This document shows, in pieces, positions 12,403-39,832 of a DNA stretch of 64,000 nucleotides. The notes under the pieces were generated by a model, which was not told the DNA's origin, searched no databases, and was given only the letters and a program-made list of their open reading frames with translations. The stretch spans positions 4,712,001 to 4,776,000 of the forward strand of contig OZ231126.1 in the NCBI GenBank assembly GCA_965153355.1. Reading direction: 5' to 3'. The stretch's first letter is position 1. Each line of letters opens with the position of its first letter. Position numbers and translations under genes: made by a program. Origin of the DNA: Flaccisagitta enflata (taxonomy: Eukaryota).

Positions 12403-12429
12403 CTGAATTTCGGGGGAATTTCAGGGAAA

Positions 12430-12493
<64 letters not shown>

Positions 12494-12716: not shown

Positions 12717-12931
12717 CTTGGCAATGGTGAGCTTTGCCTTCATTTGGGGATTTTTCAGCGATCCAATTGCGGCTTCGGCGTCAATCTTCTGCTGCGGTGA
12801 CAGTTCCCGTTTGGCGGCGTCAATTCTGCGAGCGAGGATTTTGTAGCGGCCATTCCACTCATTTCTCCAGAGATTAACGAGGTCCTCGGGAGGGATGAGT
12901 TCAAAGACTTCCAAGTTGGAGACTCTTCTAC
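12717..12931 (-). CDS. Exon 2 of the MYND zinc-finger protein gene
   Basis: Acceptor CTCAG|GT, open frame GRRVSNLEVF...KLTIAK, donor AAG|GTGAA in phase 0. Confidence 0.8.
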
Positions 12932-13574: not shown

Positions 13575-13987
13575 AGTAATGGTATATATATAGCAGAATA
13601 AAGTTCCATTTTAAATTCCATTCTCATGAATCAGAATATCTCATCATGCATATAGATTCAATATTCATTTAATCTGATCTTGGAATTTGATAAACAAACT
13701 TGCCATATATAAGGAAGGGAATTTGAACAATCAGCAGGATCGTCTTAAAAAATCTATGCTTTTCTTAATATAACATCGTGGATGAATTGAAATGGTCTGA
13801 TATAGTCCGTTGTAAGTGTGTACGTGGCATGATGCCATAGTTAGTTTGTAGGCAGATTTACTATGTCTAGGAGTTACAAGGTAAGTAGGCTTTTTAAGGA
13901 CCGTCTTTATAACAAGACCCTACTGTACAGACTCCTTCGTAGAAGTCTAACATCCTACTAACTGACAGACCGGCATTTTGCATTACT
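13575..13987 (+). repeat. 5' LTR of the outer element (TATATAA 13706-13712, splice donor AAG|GTAAGT ~13878-13886)
   Basis: Matches 18660-18671 + 32063-32463 with about 7 substitutions by eye. Confidence 0.92.
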
Positions 13988-14006
13988 TGGTATGGCAGCC
14001 GTGGGG
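13988..14006 (+). other. Primer-binding site of the outer element, tRNA-Leu-like
   Basis: TGGTATGGCAGCCGTGGGG immediately after the LTR; resembles the complement of a tRNA-Leu 3' end (TGGTGGCAGCGGTGGG) with a 2-nt insertion and a mismatch. Confidence 0.6.
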
Positions 14007-15574: not shown

Positions 15575-15696
<122 letters not shown>

Positions 15697-15833
15697 AAGA
15701 GAGACAGACAGACAAACAGACAGACAGAGTATCAGACCGACAAACAGACAGACTTTTGAATGGGAGGAATAGGAATGAGTTTGACAGACTAACGGGATAT
15801 GAGCCTACGCGAGAATGTGAACGGGAAGAGAAT

Positions 15834-15928
<95 letters not shown>

Positions 15929-16021
15929 TTAGAGACAGATGGACCCCTACACAGACAGACGCGAGACTGCGAACGATCAAACAACAGACTGAAGGACGAA
16001 GAACAAGTGAACTTAGTGAAA

Positions 16022-16113
<92 letters not shown>

Positions 16114-18671
16114 TAAAGAGAGAGAGATAAAGAGAGAGAGATAGAGAGAGAGAGAGAGGCGAAGGTCAGACCCATGGTGGGATGGACAGAATGATAGACT
16201 GACAGACAGACAGATGGACAAGTGGATACAGAAATACAGATAGGCAAAAGAAATTTCAATTTGGACTGTTACGTCAGCATACATCAGAAAATATTTCAAA
16301 ATACAAAGTCTAATCTGAAGAGATTACGTTCTCCTTTTTGTAACATAAAGTCCATTTCCACGATTTCCCTGGCAAAAAGTTGACAAACAAGTGATGGAAC
16401 GAAAGGCAAAGTCGAACTTTTAGAGAATTGGTTACAGTTGGCCACGTTTTTGTCCTTGTAGTTCTTTTTGATTGTTCTAAAATAGTTTCATTAGCTTTTT
16501 GTAGGGCACTTATAGCTCCTTTTCTTCTCTTTGATATTTCACCTGTCTTTTACTATTCTTGTTATTTCCTGCTTGGATATCACGCTGAGCACTGACCATG
16601 CAAGGCTGACATTCTGGCTTTAAGGCGATCTTCCACTGTCAGCATTTGATTAAACTGAAGGCTCGGCAGTCGGGCTGTTGGAGCCCTCTTGAACCAAGAG
16701 GGTAGTCCTGAACGGTTTAGCTAAATATTGCCAGTGCAAACCCCCTGCGAGTGCGGGGATCGAGATAGCCATGCCCAGCAGTTGGGTATGCCCGGGGGAG
16801 GGCCATCTGCATCAGATAAACAGTCGTTGGTCACAGGGTTTATATGATGTACCAGTTTGATGGCCTGAAGGCTGATTGACCAAGAAGTACAGTTTGTAGA
16901 AACAAGGTTGAGTGACCTTATTTTAGTTTGTAGAGTTATAGTTTGAGTGAGGTGTGGAAAGTTTCCGCCCATAAAAAAGGAGAAATTCTGTATGCGGGAT
17001 ACAATTAGTCGATGTTGGGGGCCAACAGATCACACTACCAAATTGCAGTTGTGACAACAGGTCGGATTGGTTACTGACAGTGACGAGGACCTGGAGAGAA
17101 CACTAACAAATACACTTTTTATTTTAAAAGAGTTTTTTTTGAGGGACATGAGCATGAAATTTAAGGACAAAATGAGAGAATGCTCCAGGCTGAGATTCAG
17201 TTTTAGAAGTTTTAAGGAATTTTTTTTTCAAAAATCTATATGAGGTAATTGACATTTATACAATGCTTAGAAAGATTAGTAGTTTTTTTTAAATAGCCTC
17301 TTATATTTGAGTTACCATGTCAAATTAGGCAAGCCATTTATTATTTAGTAGCAACAAAAAGTTTTCAACTAGATATATTTGCAAAATATTACTAAATAAT
17401 GTGTTTATGTTTTTTGCATATTTAAAAAAAAAAAAAAAAAAGTGTTGGCAGTTGTTACCAAAGGTTGATTGGCGTTTATTCTTTTTATTTTTCTGCGCAT
17501 TTTTGACAACCACTCACTTATGGACAAATACTAAGATAAGCGCACACAGGCACAGATGTACGGACTATTGCTAGGGCTTGTCATTAACATGGGATCGAGA
17601 TTTTTAACATTGATCTTTGCTAATTTGTTTCATTCTCATTCATTTATTTGACATTGGCGTTTCTACTAAATTAATTATCGTAAATGATTGGACAGTCTTA
17701 AGACGTTTTTAATTGTTCGTCTTTGACAAGTGGAGACCAACTGCAAAACAAAGAAAGAAAATCCGTTCGCCTTTTCACCCCTTATCATCTCACTAATCAC
17801 TCGCGATAACATAGCATCATCCCAGCTTTTGACTAAAATTGTGCACAAACATGAACCGACTGAGAATTTTCTAAAAATTTGAGCATTTGATGATAATGAG
17901 TGTCATATGGGTGTTAATAACAGTTGTCGCCTTGAATTTGGTGCTCAGAATGGGGGCGTAGGTCCACTTTCTGATCTCCATTTTTGAAAATGGGGCGAGA
18001 AGAAAGGGAATGTGAAGTAAAGCAGAAAAAAAATGATATTTTTCAAAATGGAGATCAAAGATCTAAAGTCCATACTAGGTGACCTGAGATGCTGTGTGTC
18101 TAAAGATGGGACGGAGGTTCCAAATTTGGTCTCATAGACAACTCGGAGTTCATTGGAAGTGATTATGATATGAATGATAATGGATGAAGTCCAAAAGAAA
18201 AAAAAAGAACAATCAGAGCTGAAAATGTACATGTTGAAATAACCTTAAAGCCGTGACAACCAGTTTGGAATGAAGGTTCAAAATTTGGTAACATGGTACA
18301 ACTTAAGGCATTGTGTTGCTTGATTTAGGGTGGAGATCCTTTATTTGGCACACAATTAGACAGTAGAAGTAAATGAATTATAAGACGGTAGAAAGAAAGT
18401 ATGATGATGGTTTCTGTCGAAGTCTAAGCTTATCAATGCTCATTAAGAATTTGATCAACAAACATCACACAAGAAGCACCGCATATGATAGCACAAACAG
18501 CACTTTTTGGCACAAAACGCACTACACACAGCAAGCATTCACTAGGGTGAATGGAATGGAGAAATGCCAACATAACCAGCAAGAAGATGCGACATTTTTG
18601 TTTACTGTTAATTGTAAAAAGATCAGATTAAGAAATGTAACTTTATAGAAGGGAGGTAGAGTAATGGTATA

Positions 18672-19578
18672 TATATTCTCCCACGTGAATACTAGTTTCG
18701 ACTCTGGGTTAGCTTTGTTTGTAGAAATCTCTGACTGACTGACGATGGTAGACGCAAAGGAATTTGGGCGTAGATTGGAAAATGGCGTGACGATGGTCTC
18801 TTTGATGTGGTAAAAATTTCAACAATCTGAGATGGGGGAGAAAATAAAAGGGAAAATTGGGCATGAAAATATGGTCAACCAATGCATGAAAGTAACATGA
18901 GATCAGGATAGACATGGACAGAAACAGCCAATAACAACATGTACATCTTATGCAGAGGCCATGAAGCCAGATCCGTACACTGCCCCCGCCCTGCCCAGCC
19001 CATTAAATTCACCCATATCACCCAATAATCAGTTGACCGGACAGACGATAAAAACAGAACATAAAACGCCAAAAACAGACAATAAAACAATAAAAACCAT
19101 ACGACAAAAACAATGATAAAATACTAAAACGCTAAAATAATAAAACTTACTTTAGGCCCAATTTCCTTGGTTTCCAGCCAGCGTCGTGATCGTCAAATAA
19201 GTCAGGCGTCCGTACATAAGTCTCTGAAATAAAAGGATGAGAGACTTATGAAAGATGAGAAATTCCAAGGGCGCAAGACATGAAAATCACACAAAATATC
19301 AATCATTCCATTAAGAAGTGATGCCATAATAACGATATTTTTTCACGATACAAATGCGAAGCATAAAAAGCACGACGACGAAAAATGTAAAAGAAGAAAA
19401 TACATGATAACATGTATCTCTCAGCGAATAAAAGAACATCAAAATCTATGCGCAACCATATGGTTCATGGTTAAATTAAATGGAAACAAAAGGCATCGAA
19501 TTGGAAAAGAGAGAGAAAAAAGCATTCACGCGAAGAACATCATCATTCCCATACTTATAAATAGCACACATTTCCACA
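18672..19578 (-). repeat. BEL element 3' LTR (907 bp; lacks the terminal 8 nt seen at the 5' LTR)
   Basis: Direct repeat of 31150-32057; begins TGTGG on the minus strand immediately after the PPT; abuts TSD GTATA. Confidence 0.93.
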
Positions 19579-19593
19579 CTCTGCCCCATTTTT
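19579..19593 (-). other. Polypurine tract of the BEL element
   Basis: Minus strand AAAAATGGGGCAGAG directly precedes TGTGG of the 3' LTR. Confidence 0.8.
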
Positions 19594-20661
19594 GGAATTT
19601 CACAAATTTCAAAAATCCGACATCTAGTTTCTAGTCGCGGGAAACCATACTAAAAAACCCATCTGTCACGCTAAAAAAAATTTACAATGATCATCTACAG
19701 CCCTCGCCTCCCTCCCCCGCCTCCGCCTCTTACATCCCCACCCCTCTTGCAGAAGGAGACCGACGAGCGACATGGCGGCGAAAGATTCCCCCCCCCCGTC
19801 CGGCAAGGGGGAGGCGTCAACCAAGCGATGTGATCAATCCAGCACCCGAAGAGCGGAGACGAGACGGAGACGAGGAAGAAAAGGCACCCGTTCTGAGGAA
19901 AAATTAAAAGGGAAGGGGGGGGGGGAAAGGGGAACGGGCCTAGGAGCACCTCTAGACTGGGATTTGCCATCGAGGTGGAAAAGTATAAGTAGAGGGCATT
20001 GACTAAAATGTTATGATACGAATATCTTCGTAATTACACGCTAAAAAGACAATGTCAAATACAAACAAGAAAAAACATACATGTTCCAAAGAACAACAAA
20101 ACAAGCATAAAAATATAAATTACTACTATCCTATATTAAAACCGAATCTGAAAAATAAAAATTAGGTAAGATTCATGGGAACGACCACGTCACCTGCACC
20201 ATTTCCAAAAGGAAACATGCGGACCATATCGGAAGCTCCAACAGCTCGTCAAATCGTGGGTAAGAGACGAGAATGAAAGGCGCGAAATGGACACCGCGAA
20301 GTTGGGCAGATGGCGCCGTCGTCTGAGAAGATTTTTCTCCCCTCGCGGGGAGATGAAAGAGAAGAGAAATGGGGGTAGATGGATTAGTAAAGTTCTCATC
20401 ATATGCAGATTCAAACATAATAACGAAAAATTCACACACCATCTCTTCCATGAAACTTACGCGGGCGTTTTTTGCCAGGCCCCGGGGCGGATAAGAATCC
20501 CACGCCCCGGGTAGCGCCCCCGAACGTGCCGGCCTGTCCATCGAGGGATGAGCGTCGCGATGAAATGGTGACGACTCAGCGAAGTGGTGGCGCTCTCCAA
20601 GTCGCGTTACTTGACGGAAATTAAAAGGACGGTAACATTGGACGTGGCACCGGATGCAGCT

Positions 20662-22740
20662 TTATTGCGGCGGCTGCTGATGGTTTTGCTGCTGCTGCTG
20701 CTGGCGGCCTGGATTCCAAGGACGCCTCTTTTTCTTTGGCGCTGTCTTGGGAGCGTCTTTATCGCTTTGCGCAGTCGACGAGACGGGAGGCCGACTTTTA
20801 TTTTCTGCAGATGCAGCTGGCGATGAAGATGTCGTCACAGTCACAGGAGCTAGGATGGCGCGAGGATCTTGTTGGATGCAGACGACGTGTTTAACAGATG
20901 CTGCCGCCGACGCCGTCTGCTGAAATCCCGCCGCCTCCTTTGCCTTTGCATCCGCAACCTTTGTCGCTGTCTCCAACTGCTTCTCCAATTCCGTCACTCG
21001 CGTATCGCTCTTGACCTTCGCATCGAGCGCAATCATCGCTTGTCGTCTCGAATCGGCGATGTTTTTCTCAATTCGAGCCTTTTCCGCCATGTCTCATAGC
21101 TGACGAGCACATTCAACACGCTGAGCGTTGCTGAATGATTGGTAGTAAGTCGGCGGTAGGGACGACGCAAGTCTTTGCAACTGTCGTTTAGAGGCATTCG
21201 ACGGTGTTGTTGCACATAGGCGTAGCAGATGCTCTTCGATGCGATGTCCAGTATCGATGTCAAGAACCGTCGACGAAGGAGTTGGCGAATCCTTCCCCTG
21301 TTGCTGAGGCGCTGTCGGTCCCTTAGCTTGCTGTTTAGGCGCTGTAGAACCAGATGCACCCGCTGGAGGCTGAATGTCGCCTTTTGAATTCCCTTGCGCT
21401 GCTGCTGCTCCCGGCCGCTGTTTAAGCTCCTTTGCCTTCTTTGACGCGGACGCCGCTGAAGACGCAGTTGCTCCCCCGCTACCCGGAGCGATTGCCGCTG
21501 CGCTGGGAACCTCCTGCTGTTGAGGAGGAAGTTGTTGCTTCTTTTTGATGTTATTGTTTTTGCCTTTGCCTTTGCTTTTGTTATTGGCCGTGGCATGAAG
21601 CTGTTGTTGCTGCAGCTGCTGCTGTTGTTGTTGCCGTTGCTGCTTTTGATGTTGTTGTTGCTGCTTCGGCTGCTGTTGTTGCTGCTGCTGCTGCTGAGGA
21701 TGCGCTGGATCGATTGCCGGCGCCCTCTTCTCCTGTCGACGCCTTTTGGGATTGGGAGTTTCATCACGAGGATCCGGCCGCTGCTGATTTGGGGGATGAA
21801 CCAATGCCGGACGCGTTTGACGATCTGATGCTGCATTGGTGGAAGATATCGCCGGTGAGTTTGCGGCTGCAGCATGAGATGTTGGAGTCAAATTCTTCCT
21901 CGACGCTTGGACCACACGCCGAGCCTCTTTGAAATTCTCCCTTTTCTTTTTCTGCCTTCCTTGTCTGCGATCCAAGGTTTCAAAACCTAACTCACATTGT
22001 GTAGCCGATGATCGCAGTTCCTTCTCTGAATTGCAGCAAATGTTTAGTTTTGAGAAGGTCTTAAAGATCAACGACTCTGACTCATCTGCTGGGTCATTGC
22101 GATGGTAAAACCAGCGTGCTTGCTTCCGCTGGATTCTGACCTCAGGAGAGTCTTTGTCCACTTCCGGGTCAATGGGCGCCTCCTCCTTTTCCTCTGCCAC
22201 CACCACCACATCCATCCCCTCCTCCTCTTCTGCCGCCTCCTCCCCATCAACCTGAGAGTCATGATCTTTGCTTCCGCTGCGATGGCCTGCAGCTTTTAAT
22301 CGTTCCTGGAGAAGGGTTCTCGCCTTCGGAGAAGCCGGTCCCCCAAAACCAGGGGTGAAAATGCGACGTGGAAGCGTTTTTGGAAGGACGGACGATCCCG
22401 TCGACGAGTTGGCGATGGAGACGTCGTCGACGGGCCGCTGCAACTTCACTCTGCGTTGACTTCCTCCCGAGATGGCAATGGTGAGGGGAGGGAGAGCGGA
22501 AGTAGAAGCGTGGTCGGCCGGCTGTTGGAGATTTGCCGACTCATCGTCCATGGTGAGGTTGAGATCGCCGCTGAAGGCCGCTGTCGTAGCCGCCTCCACC
22601 TCATCCTCAAGCAACGTGACGGAATCCGTCTCGATGTCTTCATTCCGCACTGGCGACGCCATCAAACGGTCGAGATCGAAAGATCCGGCCGCCGTCGACG
22701 CGTCCATTTCGGCCTGAAGACGCTGCGCGCGCGATGGCAT
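20662..22740 (-). CDS. Extra ORF3 of the BEL element, ~692 codons with one internal in-frame TGA (21096-21094); Gln-rich, basic NLS-like motifs, coiled coil; not Env-like
   Basis: ORFs 21094..22740 and 20662..21090 share a frame (CTA TGA GAC ATG); lies between pol and the PPT; no signal peptide or hydrophobic TM run; RQKKKR, PKRRR and PKKKRR motifs. Confidence 0.75.
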
Positions 22741-23101
22741 CTTGACTCCGACGAATCGACTTCAAGATGCAGACTGACGTGATGATGGAGTTCGACGTCA
22801 GCGGAAGCTTTGAATCACGTTAGAACGAATTGACTGTGTTTGGACGAAAGCATAGAAAATAGCATGATATCTACATATATACAAAGCATTGAACCAATGT
22901 TTAATTTACATGAAAATGAACATCACAAAGTGCCAATATGAGGAAAGAGTTGAATGCATGGATGAATAGAACCAAATATGAAGACGTACATCTCTTTATG
23001 TCAGTTATGAGCAAACAGAGCAACAATCATTCACATCTATAGTTACTAATGGACAGGCCCATGCGCCTAAATCTCTCTCTCTCAAAACTTAGCGTTTTTT
23101 T

Positions 23102-26100
23102 TTATGAGTCCATCTCCAGCCGCACGATCTTCGTGCGATCCCTCGTAACAATTCTTCCGTCAGCGCGTCGCACATGCGCCCGCCGGACATGGGGCGATGT
23201 GCCTTCAACGTCGACGACCCTCCCTAGGCTCCAATCGTGTCTGGGCACAGCCTCGTCGACGATGACTACGAGATCATCAACCGCCAGGTTCCTCTCGGAT
23301 TTTGTCCATTTACTCCGCGCATGAAGAAGATTCAAGTATTCGGAACGCCATTTCTTCCAAAAGGCATCCACTTGCGATTGGGCGCGCTTCCATTGGACAC
23401 GTGTGGACTCCGCGTCGAAGTTGACGCCGTGCTGCAACAGATCCACAGGAGCGCTTCCGGAAGTGGATGGCGATAGGATATGATTTGGCGTCAGCGCCGA
23501 CGGATCACTTGGATCATCGCTCAGCGCTGTGAGGGGGCGACGGTTGAGAATACCTTCCACCGCGATGACCGCAGTGTGGAAGGTGTCGACGTGCAGCGTG
23601 GCGCCAGATGATATGGATGCAAGATGGCGCTTAAACATCGCCACAACTCGCTCCCAAACACCACCGTAGTGCGGTGTTTGGGCGGTGATAAAATCCCATT
23701 GGAGGCCTCGTCGTTGCAATTCAAGAGTTGACGAACGATTCCACTCTTCCATCTCCTTCTTGAGGATGTTGTTGGCGCCTATCAGGTTGGTTCCTCGATC
23801 AGATGTAAATCGTCTAATGCCTGGGCGCCTGGCTGCAAAGCGAATGATGGCGTTGATCATGGAATCAGCGGACATGTTGTAGAGCAGTTCCACATGAACG
23901 GCGCGGGAGACAAAGCAAGTGAAGACTGCCACCCACACCTTATGATCTGCTCTGCCATTCATTTTCACATTGAAGTGACCCATTACATCCAATCCCGTCT
24001 CCGCGAAGACAGGTGCAGGGTTTACTCGATTGGATGGTAATGGCGCCATCTGCTGATCCGCGTGCCTTTTAAAGTTCCTCTGGCATCTAAAGCACGAATG
24101 AACGACGCTTTTAACGGCCTGAAGACCTCTAGTGATCCACGCGAATTGACGCAGTTGACATAGAGTATGCTTTGCGCCAGCATGGAAGTCATTATGATGA
24201 ACATGGCGAATTAATGACTTCACATTATCGTCTTTTGGTGGAAGAATGAAGGGAAATTTGATGTCGTCTGAGATGTCGGCATTCACCAATCGGCTGCCGA
24301 CTCGAAGGATGTCATCATCGTCGACGAAAGGGTTGAGCATCCGCATCTGCTTGTTTTTGACGATGAACTCATGACGACTGTTTGGTGCATTCACCTTTCC
24401 CGCCTCCAATTGAGCTATCACCTCTCCATAATTCTGCCGCTGCACAGCCTTGACGAGCTGCTTCTGCGCTTCCTCCAGATGGACTTGCGTCACTTCCGGT
24501 TTAGGGAGGAGATCCTTTGTCGCTCTCGTTTTTGCTTTTGGGAATAATCGCCATCGCCGGACTGCAATGAAGAGCATGGCGATGACGCGGAGTTTATGCG
24601 TCCATTTTCCCCGAGATGCGGCTGCACGCAGCACCGCGTCGAATTCTTCACTCTTATCCTCGACAGCAGCGTATAGCGCCGCCACGTGGACAGAGACAGG
24701 GTACGTCGCGATGTTTGTTTGCGGCCATTGATCCTCAGGGAGACGCAAGAAGTCCGGCCCGTTGTGGAATTGACGCCACTTCTCCGCCTCGTGAGATTCG
24801 ATTCCACGAGAGCAGTGGTCGGCGGGGTTGTTGGCGGAATCAACCCACCGCCACTGCTCTGGAGTTGATCCTGCGTGGATTTTTGAGAGACGATTGGCGA
24901 AGAAGACGGGTCTTGGGCGTGATGGGTTGTATATCATCTTCAAAGCGGCCTCTGAATCTGACCATAGTCTAATGTTTTTCTCCTGCAGATTCAAAGTCTT
25001 GTTGACGAACCGCTTGAGCGGAATCGCCTTTTCCGCGGAGACGATTTCCACACGAGGAACGCTGTTGTGATGAGATGCTCTCTTTGGATTGAGAGGAACC
25101 ACGTGTGATTTTGACCCCAATATTGTCACATAGACCGAGCCGTCGGAGTTGACTTGGCGACGATATGCAACAGCACCAAATCCACCTTTCGGCGCTGCGT
25201 CGCAGAAGATCTCGATGGTGACGGAAATGACGTCGACGTTGTCAACATCACCATTCCACCACCTTTTGACCCGGTATTGCGAAAGAAGAGGCCAAGACGA
25301 AGTGTATCTGAAGAAAGACTCTTCCAACGCCTCGTCGAGAGAAGAATCCCATCCTGTTTGTTGTGGACGACAGAGTTGGAGATGACGTCGTCCTATGTAT
25401 TGGCTTGGACTCCAAAAACCAAGTGGATCGTAAAGTTTGGCTTGCATGGAGACCAATTGACGTGGTGTTTTCGCCCTCATTGTTTTAAATTCGTCATCGC
25501 AGATGAAGACAAAGGCGTCTTCAGATGGAAGCCACGAGACTCCCAACACTTTCGTCGGCTTGTCGTCGTGGTCTTGTTTATCCGCGATGGGAATAGCGAC
25601 GTTTGGATTTCCTTCCATAAGCTGATGATGATTACTTTTCCACTTCACCAAGTGGAATCCTCCATCACCCATTGCCGACTTCACTCCCACCTTCAAGTCC
25701 AGCGCCTCGTCAACTGTATCACCACCTCCACTTCCGTCGTCGACGTAAAAACCATGACGGATAAAGTCGTAAACGTTGGGAGGGTAATATGGACGAATGA
25801 CGTTGGCGTGGTGTCTGACGGTGAAGCCAGTGACAAACGAGCTGGAGAGGCTTCCAAAGACGTGGGAAAGAAATAGATTCAATATGGCGAGGCGGAGGCT
25901 TCTATCCTTGAACCAAAAGAATCTGAAGAGATCCGCATCATCAGGGTGGACTCTTATTTGGTGGAAGAACGCCTTTATGTCACACATAAAGGCGATCTTC
26001 CACTGTCGAAAGCGCATCAGGATGTCCATTAAGCTGTTCATCAAGTTTGGTCCACCTACCAACAGATCGTTTAAACATACTCCGTCGGTGGCGGCACGCG

Positions 26101-27118
26101 CATCATGACATACTCTGGTTTTGCCTCTCAACTCCACTATGTGGAGAGGGAGGTACCAGCGCGGCTTCAGGATATCCTCGTCGTCATCAATGCTGTCAAT
26201 CTCAACCGCCACGCCCGTTTCATAGAATTTCTCAACTTCTTTGAAGACACGCTCTTTGAAGGCCGGATCGCGATTGAAGCGGAAGCGTTGGTTGACGAGC
26301 CGCTTCATGGCTGTAGGCCGAGACTTCACTTTGCGTAATATCTCCATGATCTTTTCAATTTCGAATTTCCATGTCACAGGCGCAAAATACTTTTTTGTCA
26401 CATCACAGAAATAGATCTTTTTCTCCAATGTTTCACAGGCGCGTTTGTTTTCAATCGAATCGCCCATTTCTTCAGAGGAAACGACAGATCCATAGTCATG
26501 GTAGAAAATTCGGTCGAAACTTTGATGTAAGTCGCTGTTATCCACCGAAATAGCGTTAATTGATGCAACGTCTAAACCTTTTTTTCCAGTTTTTCCACTA
26601 ATCGTCCAACTGAAACTGCATCTGAAGCATGTTAAAGACCCTGGAGGACCTCGACGAAGCTCTTGAGCGATGGCTGCGTCTGAATGAGCGGCGCCAACGA
26701 TCATCTTGACGCCTCCTGTCACCTCCGGGAATCTTATGCCTCTGACGTGGGGTTGGTCGGAAAGATCTCGTAGAAATGGTGGAATATCTTTTTCACTCGT
26801 AAGTAAATTCCCCACCAGCGCATCGTTGACATCAATGATGTATTCGGAGTTGGTGGAGCGAAGAGTGAATGACGCTAAAAGACGGTTTTCAGTCACACAA
26901 TTGTCCACTGTTACTACTTTCATTTGGACCATATTTGTAGAAATGCGCAGATGTTTGATGACATCGTGGCTGATGACGTCGCGATCAGCGCCACTATCTA
27001 TCATCGCAAAGATTGTCATTTCTTCACCAGACGCACAATTTACAATCACTACAGGGACGATGGGACGGACGACGTCGTCGAAGGATGAAACGGATCGCGA
27101 CGCAGCCGTCGCCGCCAG
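23102..27118 (-). CDS. pol: BEL/Pao Pol (aspartic protease, RT, RNase H, integrase), uninterrupted and in frame with gag after one TGA
   Basis: Protease FAMIDSGAD; RT YLPLH..RVCHDA..LNDLLVGGPNL..DIKAFFHQI..FYVDD; RNase H IFCDAA..VPRVEI..WSDS..NPADHCSRG; integrase HHCC (H..HAG..CFRC), GLDVMG, SDRGTN, GGVWERVV; C-terminal FWKKWRSEYL. The frame is open from 27118. Confidence 0.97.
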   Translation of the reverse strand: MAATAASRSVSSFDDVVRPIVPVVIVNCASGEEMTIFAMIDSGADRDVISHDVIKHLRISTNMVQMKVVTVDNCVTENRLLASFTLRSTNSEYIIDVNDALVGNLLTSEKDIPPFLRDLSDQPHVRGIRFPEVTGGVKMIVGAAHSDAAIAQELRRGPPGSLTCFRCSFSWTISGKTGKKGLDVASINAISVDNSDLHQSFDRIFYHDYGSVVSSEEMGDSIENKRACETLEKKIYFCDVTKKYFAPVTWKFEIEKIMEILRKVKSRPTAMKRLVNQRFRFNRDPAFKERVFKEVEKFYETGVAVEIDSIDDDEDILKPRWYLPLHIVELRGKTRVCHDARAATDGVCLNDLLVGGPNLMNSLMDILMRFRQWKIAFMCDIKAFFHQIRVHPDDADLFRFFWFKDRSLRLAILNLFLSHVFGSLSSSFVTGFTVRHHANVIRPYYPPNVYDFIRHGFYVDDGSGGGDTVDEALDLKVGVKSAMGDGGFHLVKWKSNHHQLMEGNPNVAIPIADKQDHDDKPTKVLGVSWLPSEDAFVFICDDEFKTMRAKTPRQLVSMQAKLYDPLGFWSPSQYIGRRHLQLCRPQQTGWDSSLDEALEESFFRYTSSWPLLSQYRVKRWWNGDVDNVDVISVTIEIFCDAAPKGGFGAVAYRRQVNSDGSVYVTILGSKSHVVPLNPKRASHHNSVPRVEIVSAEKAIPLKRFVNKTLNLQEKNIRLWSDSEAALKMIYNPSRPRPVFFANRLSKIHAGSTPEQWRWVDSANNPADHCSRGIESHEAEKWRQFHNGPDFLRLPEDQWPQTNIATYPVSVHVAALYAAVEDKSEEFDAVLRAAASRGKWTHKLRVIAMLFIAVRRWRLFPKAKTRATKDLLPKPEVTQVHLEEAQKQLVKAVQRQNYGEVIAQLEAGKVNAPNSRHEFIVKNKQMRMLNPFVDDDDILRVGSRLVNADISDDIKFPFILPPKDDNVKSLIRHVHHNDFHAGAKHTLCQLRQFAWITRGLQAVKSVVHSCFRCQRNFKRHADQQMAPLPSNRVNPAPVFAETGLDVMGHFNVKMNGRADHKVWVAVFTCFVSRAVHVELLYNMSADSMINAIIRFAARRPGIRRFTSDRGTNLIGANNILKKEMEEWNRSSTLELQRRGLQWDFITAQTPHYGGVWERVVAMFKRHLASISSGATLHVDTFHTAVIAVEGILNRRPLTALSDDPSDPSALTPNHILSPSTSGSAPVDLLQHGVNFDAESTRVQWKRAQSQVDAFWKKWRSEYLNLLHARSKWTKSERNLAVDDLVVIVDEAVPRHDWSLGRVVDVEGTSPHVRRAHVRRADGRIVTRDRTKIVRLEMDS

Positions 27119-29831
27119 TCATGCCTCGACGGGAGGAGTGATGACATTGTCGTTTGAAGTGGTCGTTGTTGAAGGTGTTGAAGCAGGAGTGGTTGAAGTG
27201 GAGGAAGGTTTGTCGAAATTGGCAAATGGAATGCCATTGTTCATCTTTTCTCCTCCTTTTTTCACCTCCTTACCATCCCCTTTCTTCACCCATGTGCGTC
27301 CATGGAGAATGGTGGCGTGCTGTTTCTTGCAGGTTTGGCAGGTTGGTCTGTTGGTGCAACCCTTTGCCGAGTGACCACTGGTGAAACAGTGGAAGCAGAG
27401 TCGGCATGATGCCAACTTTTGCACGCGTGCGTCGACGTCGAGTGAAAGGAGCTGATTGCACTCTTCCGTCGGATGCATGCCGCTGCAGACGTTGCACTTG
27501 TCGGTCGACTGCAGCTTTTGCTTCCCGTTGGTCAAAACGTCGTTGTAGGTTGGTGGATTTTCACCCATTGCCACCGCTGCCACTGCTGCGGGCTTGCTTT
27601 CCACCCCTTTATTGCGTTGGATGACAGCCCATGTTTCAATCATGTTAACCAAATTGTCAAATGAAAATGGGATGCCTTGCAATTCAAATTCGTGTTGTTT
27701 TTCCCAAAACTTGTCCGCCAAATGTGGCACTCGTTTGTTAATGATTTCCTGCAATATTTCCTTCCTGTAGCACTGTGGCAATTCTCCACACGTCTGCGCA
27801 ATCTTCTTCGTCTTCAGCAATCGTGATGCGAGATGAAAATGTCTCTTATGGTCAGCGGACGAGATTTTCGATTCAGCGGCAATCTCATGGAATAGCGCTG
27901 GGATGTTGGCTCGTGAAGCCATGAAGATGACGTCCATCTTCTTGAAGGCAGCCTTCACCTCTTCCTCTGCGACCGCTTCCGTGGTGCCAATCGCCGCAGT
28001 TTCAACTATCTCTTTCGCTGGACCCGAAAACCATTTTGGTAATTCTTGAAGAATGTCCATCTCGGTCAAACCCTCATGTTTTGCAGCATCTTTAAATTTA
28101 CGCTTCCACATCATATAATCCGTCGACGAGAGCTCTTGAAGCGGCTTCTCAGGCCTAGCTTTCTCCATCGCCTTCAAGCCGACCTCTCTTGCCCGCATTC
28201 GATTGTCGTCAGAAGCTCTCTTCAAAAACATCTCCAATGCTTCACTCTGATGGAATTGTTGCACCACTTCCGGTTGACGGGCAGCTGGATGATCGTGATG
28301 CTCTTGGTATGTGGGAGGAGGAATGATGGAGACGTATTGACCTCCCACCTTCACTGGAGAATGTCTTTTTGTGGTTTTTGTGTACCACACCTCGTCATCT
28401 TGCTGTTGTTGCTGTTGCTGATGTTGCTGCTGTTGATGTTGATGACTTCTTGGTGCATCGAAGTCTTGACGGATATATTGATGTTTCTGCAATTCTGCTA
28501 TTTGAGCTTTCGCTGCCTGCAGATCAAATTGATTCTGTTGAAGAAGTTGTTGTTGTGCCGCATTCGCTTGTTTTAGGTTTGCAGCATCCTTCTTAAGACG
28601 ATCCATTTGACGGTCTACTTCGGGAAGACGATGAGCTGGAGCTGCAGCTGGAGTCTGGGACTTTCTTTTCTCCTCCTCTTGCATTCGTCGCGCAAACTCC
28701 TCGTCCGCTGCTTCCTGCTCCCTCTTCCTTCTCCTCACGCCTTCTGCATCGTCTATCAACAGTTGATCGAGCTTCAACATATCCGCCGCCGTCAATGAAG
28801 GGTTTGGCGCCGTCGTTGTGAATTCTCTTTCGAAGATCACTTCCGGCGCCGATGGAGGAATGACGGCAGACGGCGGTTGTTGATGATGAGGAACGGATTG
28901 AGGCTGAGGTGGAGATTGAGTCTTTCCTCTTTCTCTCTTTCCTTCCCCAGTCTTCACACTCGATATACGCTGCTTCACATGAGTTTGCGTTGGTTGTTGA
29001 TGTTGAGGTTTGGACGCTATCTGAGGATGATGACGCGTGACAGGGATATGCTGTGGCTGCTTCTTCGGCGCCAGGGGCGGATGCACCGGCGCCACATTCT
29101 GCAACTTCACTGCATCACCTGCCTGTATTTCACCCTTAAATTGCTCGGAAGAAACCCATTTGAAGTGAGTTGTTCTTGCCGCCTCTTCCTCTTTCAACTG
29201 GTTGAGTCGCAGACACATCTGTTGATATTGCTGCTCTTCTTCCGGTGACTTGTTGCTTTGCTGACATCTAATAGGCACTGCGCTAATCATTTCTGACGTA
29301 TCCGTTGCAGTGACCATCGTTGTTGCTGAAGCATCTTTATCACCTCCTTCCAACATGCGGATTCTTTGCTCCGCTAATTGCTGTTGATGAAGTTGTTCAG
29401 CTTCCAATGAAACTTTGCTACCGACAGAGAGAGGATTAAAAGCAGGAGGATTGACGACTGGAGCTACACTGAAGGCAACATTCTGTTGCTGCAACTGGTG
29501 TTGGGGAACTTGCTGCTGCCGCTGAAGACTTGCTTGCTGTTGCAGCTGCCGCTGCTTCTCCTCCTCCTGTTGCTGCAACTGGGCTTCCTGCTGTTTTCTT
29601 TGTTGCTCGGCGGCTTGTTGTTGCCGCCTTTGCTCTTGTTCTTGGACCTTTTTCTGCAACATTTCTTGTTCTTTTTGCACTTGTTGCATTTCTACTCTGA
29701 CTTGTTGCAACTGTTGTTGCTGCTGTTCTTGTTGCTGCTGTTGTTGCTGCACTTTTGCTTGCTGCTGTTGCTGCTGTCGTGCTTGGTCCTGTCGTTGCTG
29801 TTGTTGCAACTGTTGAAGGCATTGCTGCTCT

Positions 29832-29872
<41 letters not shown>

Positions 29873-31080
29873 TTGCTGCCGAATCCTTTCTTGTTCGAGC
29901 TGTTGCTGACGCAGTTGCTCTGCTGCAGTTGCTGTTGGCGCAACTGTTCTTGCTGTTGTTGTTGCTCTCGCAGCTGTTGTTGTTTTTGCTGCTCTGCAGC
30001 CGCCTGTTGCTGTCTCAATTGTTCTTGCTGAAGCCTTTGTTGCTCCTCAGCATCTTTCCTTTGCTGTTCTTGCTGCAATCGTCGCTGCTCTGCCTCTTGC
30101 TGTTGCTGGAGTTGTTGCTGCCGCTGCCGCTGCTGCTGCTCCTGCTGTTCGCGTTGCTGCTGTTGCTGCTGCTGCTGCTCCAACCTCCGCTGTTGCTCTC
30201 GCAGATCAGCCTGAAGAGCTTCATCTCTTTCTTTTTGCTGTTGCAGCATCCTTCCTGCCCTCTCTCTCTCTCTGCTTCTATCGGCGTCGCGACGTCTTGA
30301 TCTTTCCCTCGGCGTCAATCCGTCGGCAGGTTTTGACTTTGCCAACGTTGCCGCTTCGTCGAGATCGTCCAAATCCGCATCTCGATGAGATTGCCCGCCT
30401 GGATTGACGGGTTCGATTTCAGAAATGTATCTCTCGACGTATTCGTTCGCGTTTCTTGGAGGGAGAAGATGACCGTCTGGAGATTGGGCGCCATGGCGCG
30501 TCGGCGGTAATCCCATGTATTCTGACGATCCCGGAAGTGGCGAGGACGTTCTCATCCGCGATGGAGGAGCGCCCGCGCCGTCGCGAGCCGATTCAGTCGG
30601 TATACTATTCCACGAAAACTGATGTACGTGCCTCTTCCGTTGGCCGAAGTCGCCTTCACGCGCGTTGATGACGTCAGCATGCGCCGGAAATCCCTCGCTG
30701 TACGTTTCTCGGTCAAAGAACCTCATGGCGTCCCATTCACGTCTAATTCGACGCAAACTCGACGCCGCGTAACGCAAGGGGTCGCCGGGCATCTCGTCGA
30801 TCGCCATTTGACGAGCGAAAGCGATATAATCGTAGACGTAGTCGCGTAGACCGTTCCTGGCGCTGTCCGAGTCCAGCGACGCGTCTTCGTAATCGTTTGA
30901 GCCTTCCGTCGTCGCCAAAGCGGCGTCGAAAAGTTGACGACACCGATCCATTTCCTGTGACAATTCGCCCTTCATAACGCGGAGTTTTTCAGTTTTGGGA
31001 CATTGGTTTAACCCAAAAAAGGACACCCGAGAAGACGTAGACGCAGTCGAACGGTTATCGTCGTCGTTGAAAGCCGCCAT
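27119..31080 (-). CDS. gag: BEL/Pao Gag, ~1320 aa, long poly-Gln/coiled-coil N-terminal half; one 1-nt frameshift near 29920
   Basis: ORFs 29692..31080 and 27119..29809 join if one G is restored in CAG-(G)AG-CAA; start context AAAATG; C-terminal triple zinc knuckle CNVCSGMHPTEEC / CFHCFTSGHSAKGC / CQTCKKQHATILH typical of BEL Gag. Confidence 0.88.
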
Positions 31081-31141
31081 TTTGACCCGATATGCCCCGG
31101 GATGTCAGAAGAAAAGTTCGAGAGGAGTCGAGTTTTAAAAT

Positions 31142-32057
31142 TGTTGAAATATATTCTCCCACGTGAATACTAGTTTCGATTCTGGGTTAGCTTTGTTTGT
31201 AGAAATCTCTGACTGACTGACGATGGTAGACGCAAAGGAATTTGGGCGTAGATTGGAAAATGGCGTGACGATGGTCTCTTTGATGTGGTAAAAATTTCAA
31301 CAATCTGAGATGGGGGAGAAAATAAAAGGGAAAATTGGGCATGAAAATATGGTCAACCAATGCATGAAAGTAACATGAGATCAGGATAGACATGGACAGA
31401 AACAGCCAATAACAACATGTACATCTTATGCAGAGGCCATGAAGCCAGATCCGTACACTGCCCCCCCCCAGCCCAGCCCATTAAATTCACCCATATCACC
31501 CAATAATCAGTTGACCGGACAGACGATAAAAACAGAACATAAAACGCCAAAAACAGACAATAAAACAATAAAAACCATACGACAAAAACAATGATAAAAT
31601 ACTAAAACGCTAAAATAATAAAACTTACTTTAGGCCCAATTTCCTTGGTTTCCAGCCAGCGTCGTGATCGTCAAATAAGTCAGGCGTCCGTACATAAGTC
31701 TCTGAAATAAAAGGATGAGAGACTTATGAAAGATGAGAAATTCCAAGGGCGCAAGACATGAAAATCACACAAAATATCAATCATTCCATTAAGAAGCGAT
31801 GCCATAATAACGATATTTTTTCGAGATAAAAATGCGAAGCATAAAAAGCACGACGACGAAAAATGTAAAAGAAGAAAATACATGATAACATGTATCTCTC
31901 AGCGAATAAAAGAACATCAAAATCTATGCGCAACCATATGGTTCATGGTTAAATTAAATGGAAACAAAAGGCATCGAATTGGAAAAAGAGAGAGAAAAAA
32001 GCATTCACGCCAAGAACATCATCATTCCCATACTTATAAATAGCACACATTTCCACA
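31142..32057 (-). repeat. BEL element 5' LTR (916 bp, TG...CA, imperfect terminal inverted repeat TGTGGAAAT/ATTTCAACA)
   Basis: Matches 18672-19578 with about 8 substitutions and 1 indel counted by eye (~99%). The inner boundary is 31142 if canonical termini are used, or ~31150 if only sequence shared with the other LTR is counted. Confidence 0.93.
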
Positions 32058-32463
32058 GTATATATATAGCAGAACAAAGTTCCATTTTAAATTCCATTCT
32101 CACGAATCAGAATATCTCATCATGCATATAGATTCAATATTCATTTAATCTGATCTTTGAATTTGATAAACAAACTTGCCATATATAAGGAAGGGAATTT
32201 GAACAATCAGCAGGATCGTCTTAAAAAATCTATGCTTTTCTTAATATAACATCGTGGATGAATTGAAATGGTCTGATATAGTCCGTTGTAAGTGTGTACG
32301 TGGCATGACGCCATAGTTAGTTTGTAGGCAGATTTACTATGTCTAGGAGTTACAAGGTAAGTAGGCTTTTTAAGGACCGTCTTTATAACAAGACCCTACT
32401 GTACAGACTCCTTTGTAGAAGTCTAACATCCTACTAACTGACAGACCGGCATGTTACATTACT
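32058..32463 (+). repeat. Main part of the outer element's 3' LTR (its first 12 nt lie at 18660-18671, separated by the BEL insertion)
   Basis: Direct repeat of 13582-13987; ends CATTACT followed by TSD ACAT. Confidence 0.92.
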
Positions 32464-33358
32464 ACATTCTAAAATGTGTGACCTGACATGTGATTACCCA
32501 TTTGGGTTATGATACTAGGTTTTTTGCGACTATAGACTTTCCTAAATTACTGCAAAATAGTGATTTTTGCCAACTTTAGGCAATGACAGCCATTTTTATG
32601 TATAACCAGAGATGCGAGGACGCATCTAAAAAGGCCGGATACACGGCTACCTCAGTATCATGAAGGTGGGCTGGGGCAGTGAAACAGAAGCAGAGGTCTC
32701 TGATTTAATTCCTTTGGAGCTAAGATTCTTGAATCTTTTTTTTTCTTGGTGTGTCTTTCTGAGAAAAAAAATTCTTAGAATAATGCCGTTTTGAGTTGGT
32801 TGAAATCTATTTGACCTTCAGTGTCTAGGATGATAATTGAGCGTGCCAGAGTTTGAACACCAGCTTGCTGGAAGGAGCTGCTGAAAGATCTTACTAGCTA
32901 ATAAGTGCACGAAACTGGCCAATCATTTGCCAATGTGGCTGAAAATTAGCCAAACATGGAGAATGTTGAAAGCTAAAGACATCACCCAAAATATAAGGTG
33001 CAGTTTTGCTTTACTGGTTTGAATTGAGGAAAAGAGGAAAAGCCGCAAAAGTATTAGATGGACAGCAGTACACAATGCCCTTAGTGAGAGCAGGAAGGAC
33101 ATGGTTAGAGGGGCCTCAGCCCCAAAGGAACCGATTACCTATGGTTGGGATCAGCGGCGTATCTGAGCCAAGATTTTAGCAGCTGCCGCCTTCAATCTAT
33201 GTCCGACAAAGCTCCTGTCCGACCTATAGTAGTAAAAATTATTATTATATAAAACTATATATTTCTATACAAAACTATACATAAATATCTACTACTATAT
33301 AAAAATAACTAAATATGACCATAAATAACTTGTTACAGCAGTGTGTATTGTGTAACTA

Positions 33359-39325: not shown

Positions 39326-39639
39326 GTGTAAACAATGATCTTTCATTTGAGACTAATCAATACATTCTAACTCCAAGTCAAAAACTTTGAAAATGGCTAG
39401 CTGACAAAAACAGTCTTTCCAAAGAAATACCACTAAGAAATGATCTGGCCTCTGATAGCTTTATTCAAAGTGATGCTGACTTTCAATTATCAATTGCTTG
39501 ATATTTAGATTTTGCAAAATAAAAAATTAGCATATTACCAACATACACTAAGAAATTGATGACTTTATGCTATGTATTTTTCAAGCTATAAAGGTTTACA
39601 ATAGGTCAATCCGATTTAAAGATCCCGCAGATGTGATTC

Positions 39640-39832
<193 letters not shown>

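What the first reader, a model, noticed from the sequence alone, without database searches (positions are those of the whole stretch)
31120..31310. No tRNA primer-binding site: an 11-nt fold-back at the U5 end, and the 3' LTR lacks exactly that segment
Seen: after the 5' LTR the sense strand reads ...GAATATATTTCAACAATTTTAAAACTCGAC with no TGG-type PBS. ATTTCAACAAT (31150-31140) is perfectly complementary to ATTGTTGAAAT (31304-31294) about 150 nt upstream inside the LTR (13 bp with a G-U and an A-U). The 3' LTR stops 8 nt short (missing TTTCAACA) yet the 5-bp TSD is perfect. Known: S. pombe Tf1 self-primes using an 11-nt duplex between its RNA 5' end and the PBS. Inference A: self-priming, with DNA synthesis starting near 31150, would produce this LTR asymmetry. 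Inference B (at least as likely): TTTCAACA is the canonical LTR end, since it matches the other terminus 8/9 as an inverted repeat, and was deleted at this junction through TATA microhomology. Under B the primer is still unexplained.
Basis: partly seen in the sequence, partly recalled or inferred. Interest (0 to 1): 0.75.

Follow-up and report, generated by a model that had tools for sequence, protein, structure and literature searches.

The report
BEL/Pao retrotransposon with possible self-primer
A long BEL/Pao-type jumping gene of a marine animal has no tRNA landing site, and a short stretch inside its terminal repeat pairs with the repeat's own end exactly where one repeat is cut short, so it may start copying itself with its own RNA, but this is not proven.

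Summary
The window holds a 13.4-kb BEL/Pao element on the minus strand. Its LTRs are 99% identical. The 5' LTR runs on through TTTCAACA (to 31142); the 3' LTR stops 7-8 nt earlier (18671). A real target-site duplication is shown by an empty allele in a public run. The 60-nt leader has no TGG. ATTGTTGAAAT (31304-31294) is the perfect complement of ATTTCAACAAT (31150-31140).

Chance estimates from dinucleotide shuffles:
- an 11-nt complement anywhere in a 35-nt zone: 30 of 2000
- one starting at the LTR breakpoint: 59 of 20000
- the 8/9 terminal inverted repeat: 143 of 20000

TTCAACA fits the published LTR-end consensus YNYAACA, and two relatives (L003, L014) have TG...CA LTRs. I therefore take TTTCAACA as the canonical LTR end.

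My best reading (0.37) is fold-back self-priming whose primer site overlaps that LTR end. The shortened 3' LTR would then be the footprint of a cDNA that lost the primer copy.

Rivals: a chance or structural duplex with a one-off loss and an unknown primer (0.30, plus 0.10 for the structural form), and pure Tf1-like priming (0.13).

No other copies of the family could be fetched, and the one PBS-less relative (L003) has no such duplex. The scan noted a PBS-less BEL group before, in another genome (e1-7468529).

The parts
31142..32057 (-). 5' LTR, 916 nt with its canonical end: TGTGGAAAT...ATTTCAACA
   Evidence: LTR pair found. The start is set by the alignment and the motif check. The end is set by TG...CA, the 8/9 inverted repeat and the fit to YNYAACA.
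18671..19578 (-). 3' LTR, 99.0% identical to 32057-31149, lacking the last 7-8 nt (TTCAACA / TTTCAACA)
31294..31306 (-). Inner arm of the fold-back, AGATTGTTGAAAT. It is att-like (TGTTGAA fits TGTTRNR) and is the candidate first 13 nt of the RNA. It sits in TCAGATT, which fits the loose initiator pattern YYANWYY.
   Evidence: The initiator pattern has 15 matches in this LTR, so it is weak evidence.
31138..31150 (-). Outer arm, ATTTCAACAATTT: the last 9 nt of the LTR plus 4 nt of leader. Candidate primer-binding site overlapping the U5 end.
   Evidence: (duplex -12.5 kcal/mol)
31081..31141 (-). Leader between the LTR and the gag ATG (31080-31078). No TGG, no tRNA-type PBS.
   Evidence: read by eye; ORF 29692-31104, M is its ninth residue.
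32058..32062 (-). Left copy of the target-site duplication (TATAC if 5 bp), at the end of a (TA)5 run
   Evidence: Empty allele.
18667..18671 (-). Right copy of the duplication. ATAC (18670-18667) is certain. The T at 18671 may belong to the TSD or to the LTR.
19579..19593 (-). Polypurine-type tract AAAAATGGGGCAGAG directly before the 3' LTR
23102..27118 (-). pol frame (1338 codons): Peptidase_A17 (Pao), integrase zinc and core domains, DUF5641
27119..31080 (-). gag region, in two overlapping frames (29692-31104 and 27119-30046) that change frame inside a CAG-rich stretch. No Pfam match.
13575..13987 (-). Paralogue of the 5' flank (98.3% to 32058-32463) that also shows the uninterrupted site ...TATATATAC|CATTACT

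Best explanation
This is a full-length copy of a very abundant BEL/Pao LTR retrotransposon family of a marine animal.

Its LTR is canonical: TG...CA, 916 nt, with TGTGGAAAT...ATTTCAACA as the integrase recognition ends. The family has no tRNA 3'-end primer site.

I think reverse transcription is most likely primed by the element's own RNA. The RNA would start at about 31306 (AGAUUGUUGAAAU). Its first 11-13 nt fold back onto AUUUCAACAAU(UU) at 31150-31138. RNase H then cuts the RNA behind the duplex, as in Tf1.

Unlike Tf1, the primer site here overlaps the last 9 nt of the LTR. DNA synthesis therefore starts opposite 31151 or 31150. The terminal TTTCAACA of the right-hand LTR can then only come from the plus strand copying the retained primer. 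Integrase would cut after that CA and remove the AT beyond it.

A cDNA whose primer copy was lost before integration ends ...GAGAATATA. That is exactly what the 3' LTR of this copy shows.

Shown: the anatomy, the duplex, the missing nucleotides, the true TSD, and the absence of TGG. Inferred: the RNA start, the cleavage, retention of the primer copy, and integration of a shortened end.
For: 1. The element is BEL/Pao, and its leader is the family's own, not a private mutation. A contig at depth 463 in an independent marine run, X3, spans 31022-31179 with 1 difference (record 26).

2. No TGG lies in the 60-nt leader. No tRNA gene was found in the window and no Rfam family. A more distant BEL/Pao relative, L014, has the ordinary arrangement: TG...CA, a 5-bp TSD, and TGGTGCTGTGAC 5 nt after the LTR. 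That site matches, by eye, 11 of 12 letters of the tRNA-His 3' end printed in the supplement of PMC13524379.

3. The 11-nt perfect duplex (13 bp with one G-U) is rare by chance: 30 of 2000 shuffles anywhere in a 35-nt zone, and 59 of 20000 when it must start at 31151-31149, where the two LTRs part.

4. The shortened 3' LTR ends at the 5' edge of the duplex, where a fold-back primer would start DNA synthesis. The TSD is genuine (empty allele).

5. The canonical end explains the 8/9 inverted repeat (143 of 20000 by chance) and the fit to YNYAACA. It also explains why the inner arm looks like a 5' LTR end: TGTTGAA fits TGTTRNR.

6. Precedents from passages I read. About 50% of Tf1 cDNA keeps a full PBS copy as single-stranded DNA at its 3' end (PMC11042837). 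In gypsy-lineage elements the first PBS base overlaps the last LTR base (PMC3286476).

7. An RNA starting at 31306 puts the 5'-end/primer-site stem in its minimum-energy fold and in its centroid.
Against: 1. No other copy, solo LTR or close relative could be read. It is therefore unknown whether shortened ends recur or whether the two arms co-vary.

2. L003 is the only other PBS-less relative with an LTR-leader junction (43% pol identity). It has no complement of 8 nt or more to its LTR end and leader other than its own terminal repeat. The clade may use some other primer.

3. With the canonical LTR end, the site fails the operational test used in print: a complement of at least 10 bp starting 0-5 bp downstream of the 5' LTR (PMC6317226 methods passage). 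Only 2 of the 11 nt lie downstream.

4. The RNA start is not known. All four runs laid were contigs. The RNA runs show the same LTR-to-internal depth ratio as the DNA runs and also hold the empty allele, so they may carry DNA. Two TCAGTC initiator-like motifs at 31220 and 31216 are rival start sites.

5. The fold is no more stable than shuffles (z = 0.33). When the gag start is included, the inner arm pairs instead with UUUCAACGA inside gag.

6. Integrase acting on an end whose last 9 nt are single-stranded or paired to RNA has no precedent that I know of.

7. The finding was picked from a very large scan, so coincidences at the 1-in-1000 level are expected now and then.
Confidence: 0.37

Rival explanations
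1. Canonical LTR, unknown primer, one-off loss. The LTR ends in TTTCAACA. The family is primed by something not testable here: a tRNA half, an internal tRNA segment or another small RNA pairing with the leader. The inner motif is complementary to the LTR end by chance. This copy lost its last 7-8 nt in one of two ways: when a cDNA end was captured at the (TA)5 target through ATATAT homology, or by a small deletion later.
For: - The TG...CA, inverted-repeat and consensus arguments hold as above.
- L003 lacks both a TGG site and a fold-back, so a non-tRNA-3'-end, non-self primer is needed somewhere in this clade anyway.
- The target is a (TA)5 run and the LTR has ATATAT just before the missing block.
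- Insertion guided by short homologies at cDNA ends is documented for Tf1 and HIV-1 (PMC11042837 passages).
- The LTRs differ at 9 of 909 aligned positions, so there was time for a deletion.
- The look-elsewhere effect of a large scan applies.
Against: - It needs two independent rarities: a loss that removes just the LTR end yet keeps a perfect duplication, and an 11-nt complement that begins at that same nucleotide (59 of 20000).
- A later deletion has only 2 nt of microhomology.
- Only one 1-nt indel separates the two LTRs over 909 nt, so indels have been rare.
- It leaves the primer unexplained.
Confidence: 0.3
2. Pure Tf1-like self-priming. The LTR really ends at ...GAGAATAT(A), near 31150. 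ATTTCAACAAT is an ordinary primer site just outside the LTR. Every 3' LTR and solo LTR of the family lacks TTTCAACA.
For: - With the LTR end set by LTR-LTR identity, the site starts 0-1 nt after the LTR and is 11 nt long. That meets the criterion of PMC6317226.
- It needs no special event for this copy.
- One contig of a diverged subfamily in X16 (record 18, 108 nt) stops aligning at 31152 with only 3 letters left. That would fit LTRs that end there, but a TA-run length variant would look the same.
Against: - The LTR would end in TA, with no inverted repeat, although nearly all LTR elements, Bel/Pao included, are said to keep such repeats (PMC3601003 conclusion passage).
- The 'primer site' would match the inverted LTR start 8/9 (143 of 20000) and the consensus YNYAACA (1159 of 20000) by accident.
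- The relatives L003 and L014 end in CA.
Confidence: 0.13
3. Structural stem, not a primer. The duplex closes the last 150 nt of the LTR into a loop next to the initiation site, like the U5-IR and U5-leader stems of retroviruses. It helps a separate primer bind. As DNA, the same fold-back at the 5' end of the minus strand could now and then stop plus-strand synthesis 8-9 nt early and so give a shortened end.
For: - The duplex is real and lies next to where initiation must occur.
- A U5-IR loop at the 5' end of retroviral genomes is mentioned in PMC3601003 (discussion passage). The details of retroviral U5-IR stems are from my own recall.
- This reading links the duplex edge to the shortened end without requiring that the RNA start at 31306.
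Against: - No primer is identified.
- The stem is AU-rich with a 143-nt loop and has a competitor in gag.
- It is absent from L003.
- Reverse transcriptases displace such short stems easily (recall).
Confidence: 0.1

Closest known systems
Tf1/Tf2 of Schizosaccharomyces pombe and the Tf1/sushi group (Ty3/gypsy chromoviruses): self-primed reverse transcription
   Same: - No tRNA primer site.
- An 11-nt perfect duplex between a site inside the LTR and the primer site.
- Tf1 cDNA often keeps the copied primer site at its 3' end, which integrase must remove (PMC11042837 passage; PMC6317226 passages).
   Different: - A different superfamily: BEL/Pao, not Ty3/gypsy.
- The site overlaps the last 9 nt of the LTR instead of lying 0-5 nt after it.
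- The RNA start is not known.
- No conservation is shown; L003 lacks the duplex.
Ordinary BEL/Pao elements with a tRNA primer site (here L014, 32% pol identity)
   Same: - Pao-type pol with Peptidase_A17, integrase and DUF5641.
- TG...CA LTRs and a 5-bp duplication.
   Different: - L014 has TGGTGCTGTGAC 5 nt after the LTR, 11 of 12 to a tRNA-His 3' end. The window's element and L003 have no TGG in the leader.
- The window's element is about twice as long (13.4 kb) and has extra frames after pol.
Gypsy-lineage elements whose primer site overlaps the LTR by one base
   Same: The last LTR base is also the first primer-site base, so it is re-made from the primer (PMC3286476 passage).
   Different: The overlap there is 1 nt and the primer is a tRNA. 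Here the overlap would be 9 nt and the primer would be the element's own RNA.
PBS-less BEL-type elements noted earlier in this scan (e1-7468529, another genome)
   Same: BEL/Pao elements without a tRNA site and with a short sequence pairing with their own RNA (unchecked note).
   Different: - That note pairs the site with the predicted poly(A) site of the RNA.
- Here the LTR holds no AATAAA or listed variant other than AATATA at 31155, so none lies just upstream of the inner arm, and the pairing would involve the RNA's 5' end.
- No sequence likeness to that finding was found.

Membership tests
BEL/Pao (Belpaoviridae, Semotivirus) LTR retrotransposons | Pao-type pol (Pfam Peptidase_A17) with integrase and the C-terminal DUF5641 | tested here: met
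   PF05380 E=4.5e-27, PF18701 E=3.3e-21, PF17921 E=6.9e-8. PF00665 scored 23.2 bits, below its cut-off of 32.6. Relatives carry the same domains.
BEL/Pao (Belpaoviridae, Semotivirus) LTR retrotransposons | LTRs with TG...CA short inverted repeats and a 4-6 bp target duplication | tested here: met
   The 5' LTR reads TGTGGAAAT...ATTTCAACA. The duplication is at least 4 bp, confirmed by the empty allele. The 3' LTR of this copy lacks the CA end. The 4-6 bp range is from recall.
BEL/Pao (Belpaoviridae, Semotivirus) LTR retrotransposons | Primer site complementary to a tRNA 3' end (TGG...) within a few nt of the 5' LTR | tested here: not met
   No TGG in 31141-31081. The species' tRNA set was not available, so half-tRNA or internal matches were not tested.
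Tf1/sushi-type self-primed elements | Complement of at least 10 bp between the 5' LTR and a region starting 0-5 bp downstream of the LTR (criterion of PMC6317226) | tested here: inconclusive
   There are 11 perfect bp. The site starts 9 nt before the canonical LTR end, so the criterion is not met. It starts 0-1 nt after the LTR-LTR identity breakpoint, so by that boundary it is met.
Tf1/sushi-type self-primed elements | [quoted passage not shown] | not testable with these tools
   All runs laid were contigs, which cannot show RNA starts. Only a loose initiator match (TCAGATT) was found at 31308.
Tf1/sushi-type self-primed elements | The arrangement is kept among relatives, with co-variation | tested here: not met
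   Only 1 relative had an LTR-leader junction and no TGG (L003), and it has no such complement. Closer relatives could not be fetched.
Tf1/sushi-type self-primed elements | Membership of the Ty3/gypsy chromovirus lineage | tested here: not met
   pol is Pao-type. No chromodomain was found.

The most novel reading that the evidence does not exclude
The element's primer-binding site is built into the integrase recognition end of its own LTR. The RNA begins with a sense copy of an LTR-end motif (TGTTGAAAT) that folds onto the U5 end. In every cycle the last 9 nt of the right-hand LTR, including the CA that integrase joins, are re-templated from the self-primer and not from U5. Copies that lose the primer tail integrate with an LTR 8 nt short. 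This would be the first self-priming BEL/Pao family and a new layout for self-priming.
Probability: 0.3. Interest if true: 0.75.

Novelty: new variant of a known kind. Interest (0 to 1): 0.5.

Why it matters
Self-primed reverse transcription has been shown by experiment only for Tf1-type Ty3/gypsy elements. It has been predicted for some plant and fungal lineages (PMC6317226 passages).

In the held library I found no paper that ascribes it to BEL/Pao. Searches gave 0, 2 and 5 papers. All 5 distinct papers only co-mention the terms (passages read).

If the reading holds, a very abundant animal retrotransposon family replicates without a host tRNA. It would also show how a primer site and an integrase site can share the same nucleotides. 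That matters for LTR-finding software, which rejects or mis-bounds such elements. It also matters for understanding how primer choice evolves.

If it does not hold, this is an ordinary copy with a nicked LTR end and an unidentified primer.

Tried and rejected
Attempts to read other copies:
- No whole genome is held for this window.
- BLAST of the element and tblastn of pol against the window found no second copy or solo LTR.
- An exact 20-nt LTR-end pattern had 0 matches in metagenome contigs.
- Protein-guided scans of viral contigs found nothing.
- A search of the protein collection with the 53-codon frame that crosses the LTR end found no candidate.
- The earlier-findings index has nothing on this genome or on a look-alike.

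Reads:
- All four runs were contigs.
- The table of loose ends showed 14 rows and withheld 103, none at 31142-31150.
- The 71-nt depth bins cannot separate 31142 from 31150.
- No RNA start, RNA level or habitat claim is made from these runs.

Relatives:
- 13 metagenome loci and 1 locus in a MAG were fetched. Only L003 and L014 gave LTR-leader junctions.
- L002 and L008 overlap (98.8% over 888 nt) but hold no LTR pair.

Other checks:
- A G-run in the LTR pairs on paper with the CU-rich leader (-14.7 kcal/mol). I rejected it as G-U-rich and non-specific.
- Poly(A)-site pairing, the idea of note e1-7468529: no AATAAA or variant lies upstream of the inner arm.
- An ancestral short LTR starting at TGTTGAAAT: no purine tract precedes it.
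- A MITE with AT duplication: considered and dropped, because its end would have to coincide with the LTR end.
- Rfam: nothing at gathering threshold in the window. One sub-threshold lncRNA match (E=0.78) in the LTR was taken as chance.

Papers not held: PMC1563812 and PMC1369541. What I say about primer retention in Tf1 rests on the citing passage in PMC11042837.

Full report
WHAT IS THERE

A direct repeat pair marks an LTR retrotransposon on the minus strand. The shared part is 909 nt at 99.0% identity: 32057-31149 (5' LTR) and 19578-18671 (3' LTR).

Between the LTRs lie:
- a 60-nt leader
- gag, in two overlapping frames that switch inside a CAG-rich stretch
- a 1338-codon pol frame
- further open frames after pol

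Pol carries Pfam Peptidase_A17 (Pao), an integrase zinc domain and DUF5641. The integrase core scores below its cut-off. The element is therefore BEL/Pao. From 32057 to 18671 it spans 13,387 nt.

A purine tract, AAAAATGGGGCAGAG, sits directly before the 3' LTR.

CHECK OF THE OBSERVATION

- After the shared GAGAATATAT, the 5' LTR continues TTCAACA and then ATTTTAAAACTCGAC. The 3' LTR continues ATAC and then CATTACT.
- ATTGTTGAAAT (31304-31294) is the perfect complement of ATTTCAACAAT (31150-31140). Two more pairs, one of them G-U, give 13 bp.
- The LTR start TGTGGAAAT and the stretch ATTTCAACA (ending at 31142) are inverted repeats at 8 of 9 positions.
- The leader has no TGG before the gag start codon (31080-31078).

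The target-site duplication is genuine. Laying public contigs on 30300-32400 gave a 494-nt contig in run X16. Its part outside the stretch is, letter for letter, the window's 3' flank, and it joins directly to 32058. The site therefore exists unoccupied as ...CTATATATATAC|CATTACTC.

A 98.3% paralogue of the 5' flank inside the window (13582-13987) shows the same uninterrupted site.

Because the target ends in a TA run, the loss can be read as 7 nt with a 4-bp duplication, 8 nt with 5 bp, or 9 nt with 6 bp. A relative, L014, has a 5-bp duplication.

IS IT MORE THAN CHANCE?

With dinucleotide-preserving shuffles of the LTR:
- A perfect complement of 11 nt or more to a 35-nt zone around the LTR end turned up in 30 of 2000 trials.
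- One that starts within a nucleotide of where the two LTRs part turned up in 59 of 20000.
- The 8/9 inverted repeat arose in 143 of 20000.
- A match to the pattern YNYAACA arose in 1159 of 20000.

Each feature alone is uncommon but not extreme. The window was picked from a very large scan, so the look-elsewhere effect is real.

WHERE DOES THE LTR END?

Three lines put it at the CA of TTTCAACA (31142).

1. A survey of LTRs gives the conserved integrase recognition ends as 5' TGTTRNR...YNYAACA 3'. It states that nearly all LTR retrotransposons, Bel/Pao included, keep such short inverted repeats (PMC3601003, abstract, Table 3 and conclusion passages). TTCAACA fits the 3' pattern exactly, and TGTGGAA fits the 5' pattern at 6 of 7 positions.

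2. L003 is a metagenome contig with a relative at 43% pol identity. It appears to run from the end of the internal region, through one collapsed LTR, into gag. A purine tract (GGGGAGGGGGAG) precedes TGATGGGA, and 1680 nt later TCCCATCA abuts the leader.

3. L014 is a complete relative at 32% identity. It has TGTCGAG...CCCCTACA LTRs, a GGTAG duplication and an ordinary primer site 5 nt after the LTR. By eye, that site matches 11 of 12 letters of the tRNA-His 3' end printed in the supplement of PMC13524379.

So the ordinary BEL/Pao layout exists among relatives, and the window's element departs from it.

THE FAMILY

The pol has relatives at 99% (a cluster of 118 sequences), 79% and 57% identity and downward, nearly all from marine assemblies. 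Of the 24 runs listed, 20 hold part of the stretch. Most are labelled as marine metagenomes or metatranscriptomes.

In run X1 the summed contig depth is about 14,000-31,000 over the internal part and 26,000-286,000 over the LTR. The family is highly repeated.

The leader is the family's own. A contig at depth 463 in run X3 spans 31022-31179 with one difference (record 26). The missing tRNA site is thus not a private defect of this copy.

WHAT PRIMES IT?

A Tf1-like fold-back of the RNA's first 11-13 nt onto 31150-31138 would start DNA synthesis opposite 31151 or 31150. In the standard scheme the right-hand LTR of the cDNA then ends at ...GAGAATAT(A). That is exactly where the 3' LTR of this copy ends.

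The two can be reconciled. For Tf1, about half of the cDNA in particles keeps the full primer-site copy as single-stranded DNA at its 3' end (PMC11042837, results passage citing Atwood-Moore et al. 2006). I could not read the original.

If the same happens here, the plus strand's 3' end reads ...GAGAATAT-ATTTCAACA-AT. Integrase cutting after CA then yields the canonical LTR. In this reading the last 9 nt of the LTR are re-made from the primer in each cycle.

It also becomes natural that the inner arm looks like a 5' LTR end (TGTTGAA fits TGTTRNR), because it must be the inverse of the 3' end. A cDNA that lost the tail would give the shortened LTR seen here.

A one-base version of such an overlap is described for gypsy-lineage elements (PMC3286476 passage).

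An RNA beginning at 31306 does place this stem in its minimum-energy and centroid folds.

WHAT SPEAKS AGAINST IT

- I could not read a single other copy. Recurrence of the shortened end and co-variation of the arms are therefore untested.
- L003 also lacks TGG in its 200-nt leader, yet has no complement of 8 nt or more to its LTR end or leader apart from its terminal repeat. At least one PBS-less member of this clade must use something else.
- With the canonical boundary, the site fails the printed operational criterion for self-primers, a complement starting 0-5 bp after the LTR (PMC6317226 methods passage).
- The RNA start is unknown. The loose initiator pattern that fits at 31308 fits 15 places in the LTR. 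Two TCAGTC motifs lie at 31220 and 31216.
- The RNA runs were contigs. They showed a DNA-like LTR-to-internal ratio (47.6 against 15.7 in X16) and the empty allele, so they cannot show transcription.
- The fold is no more stable than shuffles (z = 0.33). With the gag start included, the inner arm pairs with UUUCAACGA in gag instead.

THE RIVALS

A one-off loss remains possible.
- After insertion, the deleted block has only 2 nt of microhomology. Only one 1-nt indel separates the LTRs over 909 nt, so a later deletion landing exactly here is unlikely.
- At insertion, capture of the cDNA end at the (TA)5 target through the LTR's ATATAT is conceivable. Homology-guided insertion of cDNA ends is documented (PMC11042837 passages).
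- The duplex could also be a structural stem near the initiation site and not a primer.

I weigh the readings as follows:
- overlap self-priming: 0.37
- one-off loss with an unknown primer and a chance duplex: 0.30
- pure Tf1-like priming: 0.13
- structural stem: 0.10

COMPARISON WITH WHAT IS KNOWN, AND NOVELTY

The element is a member of BEL/Pao by its pol and its LTR ends, but it fails the tRNA-site feature. It works, at best, like Tf1. It is not a member of that lineage, and it meets the self-primer criteria only in part.

In the held library no paper ascribes self-priming to BEL/Pao. Searches gave 0, 2 and 5 papers. The 5 distinct papers only co-mention the terms (passages). Supplements of those papers were not read.

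The scan itself noted a PBS-less BEL group in another genome (e1-7468529, unchecked). Its idea, pairing with the poly(A) site, does not fit here, because no poly(A) hexamer precedes the inner arm.

I rate the finding a possible new variant of a known kind, of moderate interest. A simple census of LTR-flank junctions in the organism's own reads would decide most of it.

Noticed in passing
window 27116-27121 (-); L003 4965-4970: gag and pol are in the same frame, separated by a single UGA followed by CUG. L003 has UGA followed by CUA. UGA-CU is a context known (from recall) to favour stop-codon readthrough, so this clade may express pol by readthrough and not by a frameshift or a single frame.
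   Followed up: partly
window 29692-30046 (-): The gag region is read in two overlapping frames that change inside a long CAG/glutamine-rich stretch. It is either a frameshift in this copy or a slippery repeat. Neither half has a Pfam match.
   Followed up: no
window 19700-23100 (-); L003 9031-10560: There is about 3.5 kb between pol and the 3' LTR, with open frames of 555, 284, 162 and 143 codons. The 555-codon frame has no Pfam match. L003 also has an open frame overlapping the end of pol. These are unusually long BEL/Pao elements (13.4 kb) with an unexplained third region.
   Followed up: no
window 13582-13987 and 32058-32463; also 13266-13338 and 32608-32680: The DNA upstream of the element is duplicated 18 kb away at 98.3% identity. 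The likeness ends 7 nt past the insertion point. This is a local segmental duplication or another repeat family into which the element inserted.
   Followed up: partly
X16 record 23 (laid on 32058-32178): The insertion is polymorphic. A public run holds the unoccupied allele of exactly this site, so this copy is not fixed in the population.
   Followed up: yes
L014 (contig of 2.57 Mb labelled as a Candidatus Poribacteria MAG), element about 7738-13932: This is a complete BEL/Pao element with 207-nt LTRs, a 5-bp duplication and a tRNA-His-type primer site, in a contig filed as bacterial. BEL/Pao elements are known only from animals. The contig is more likely host (sponge-like) DNA that was binned or labelled wrongly than a transfer into a bacterium.
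   Followed up: partly
window 31152-32057, depth profile: In run X1 the 3' 640 nt of the LTR (31152-31790) have about 3 times or more the summed depth of the first 270 nt (31791-32057). Many copies or subfamilies apparently share only the 3' part of the LTR. Several contigs show diverged LTR variants joined to the same LTR end and leader.
   Followed up: no
window 15494-16023, 39552-39820 and 21572-21717, 29472-30213: There are short-period tandem arrays. One has units of 8-12 nt at two places 24 kb apart. The other consists of the CAG-type repeats inside the element's coding regions.
   Followed up: no
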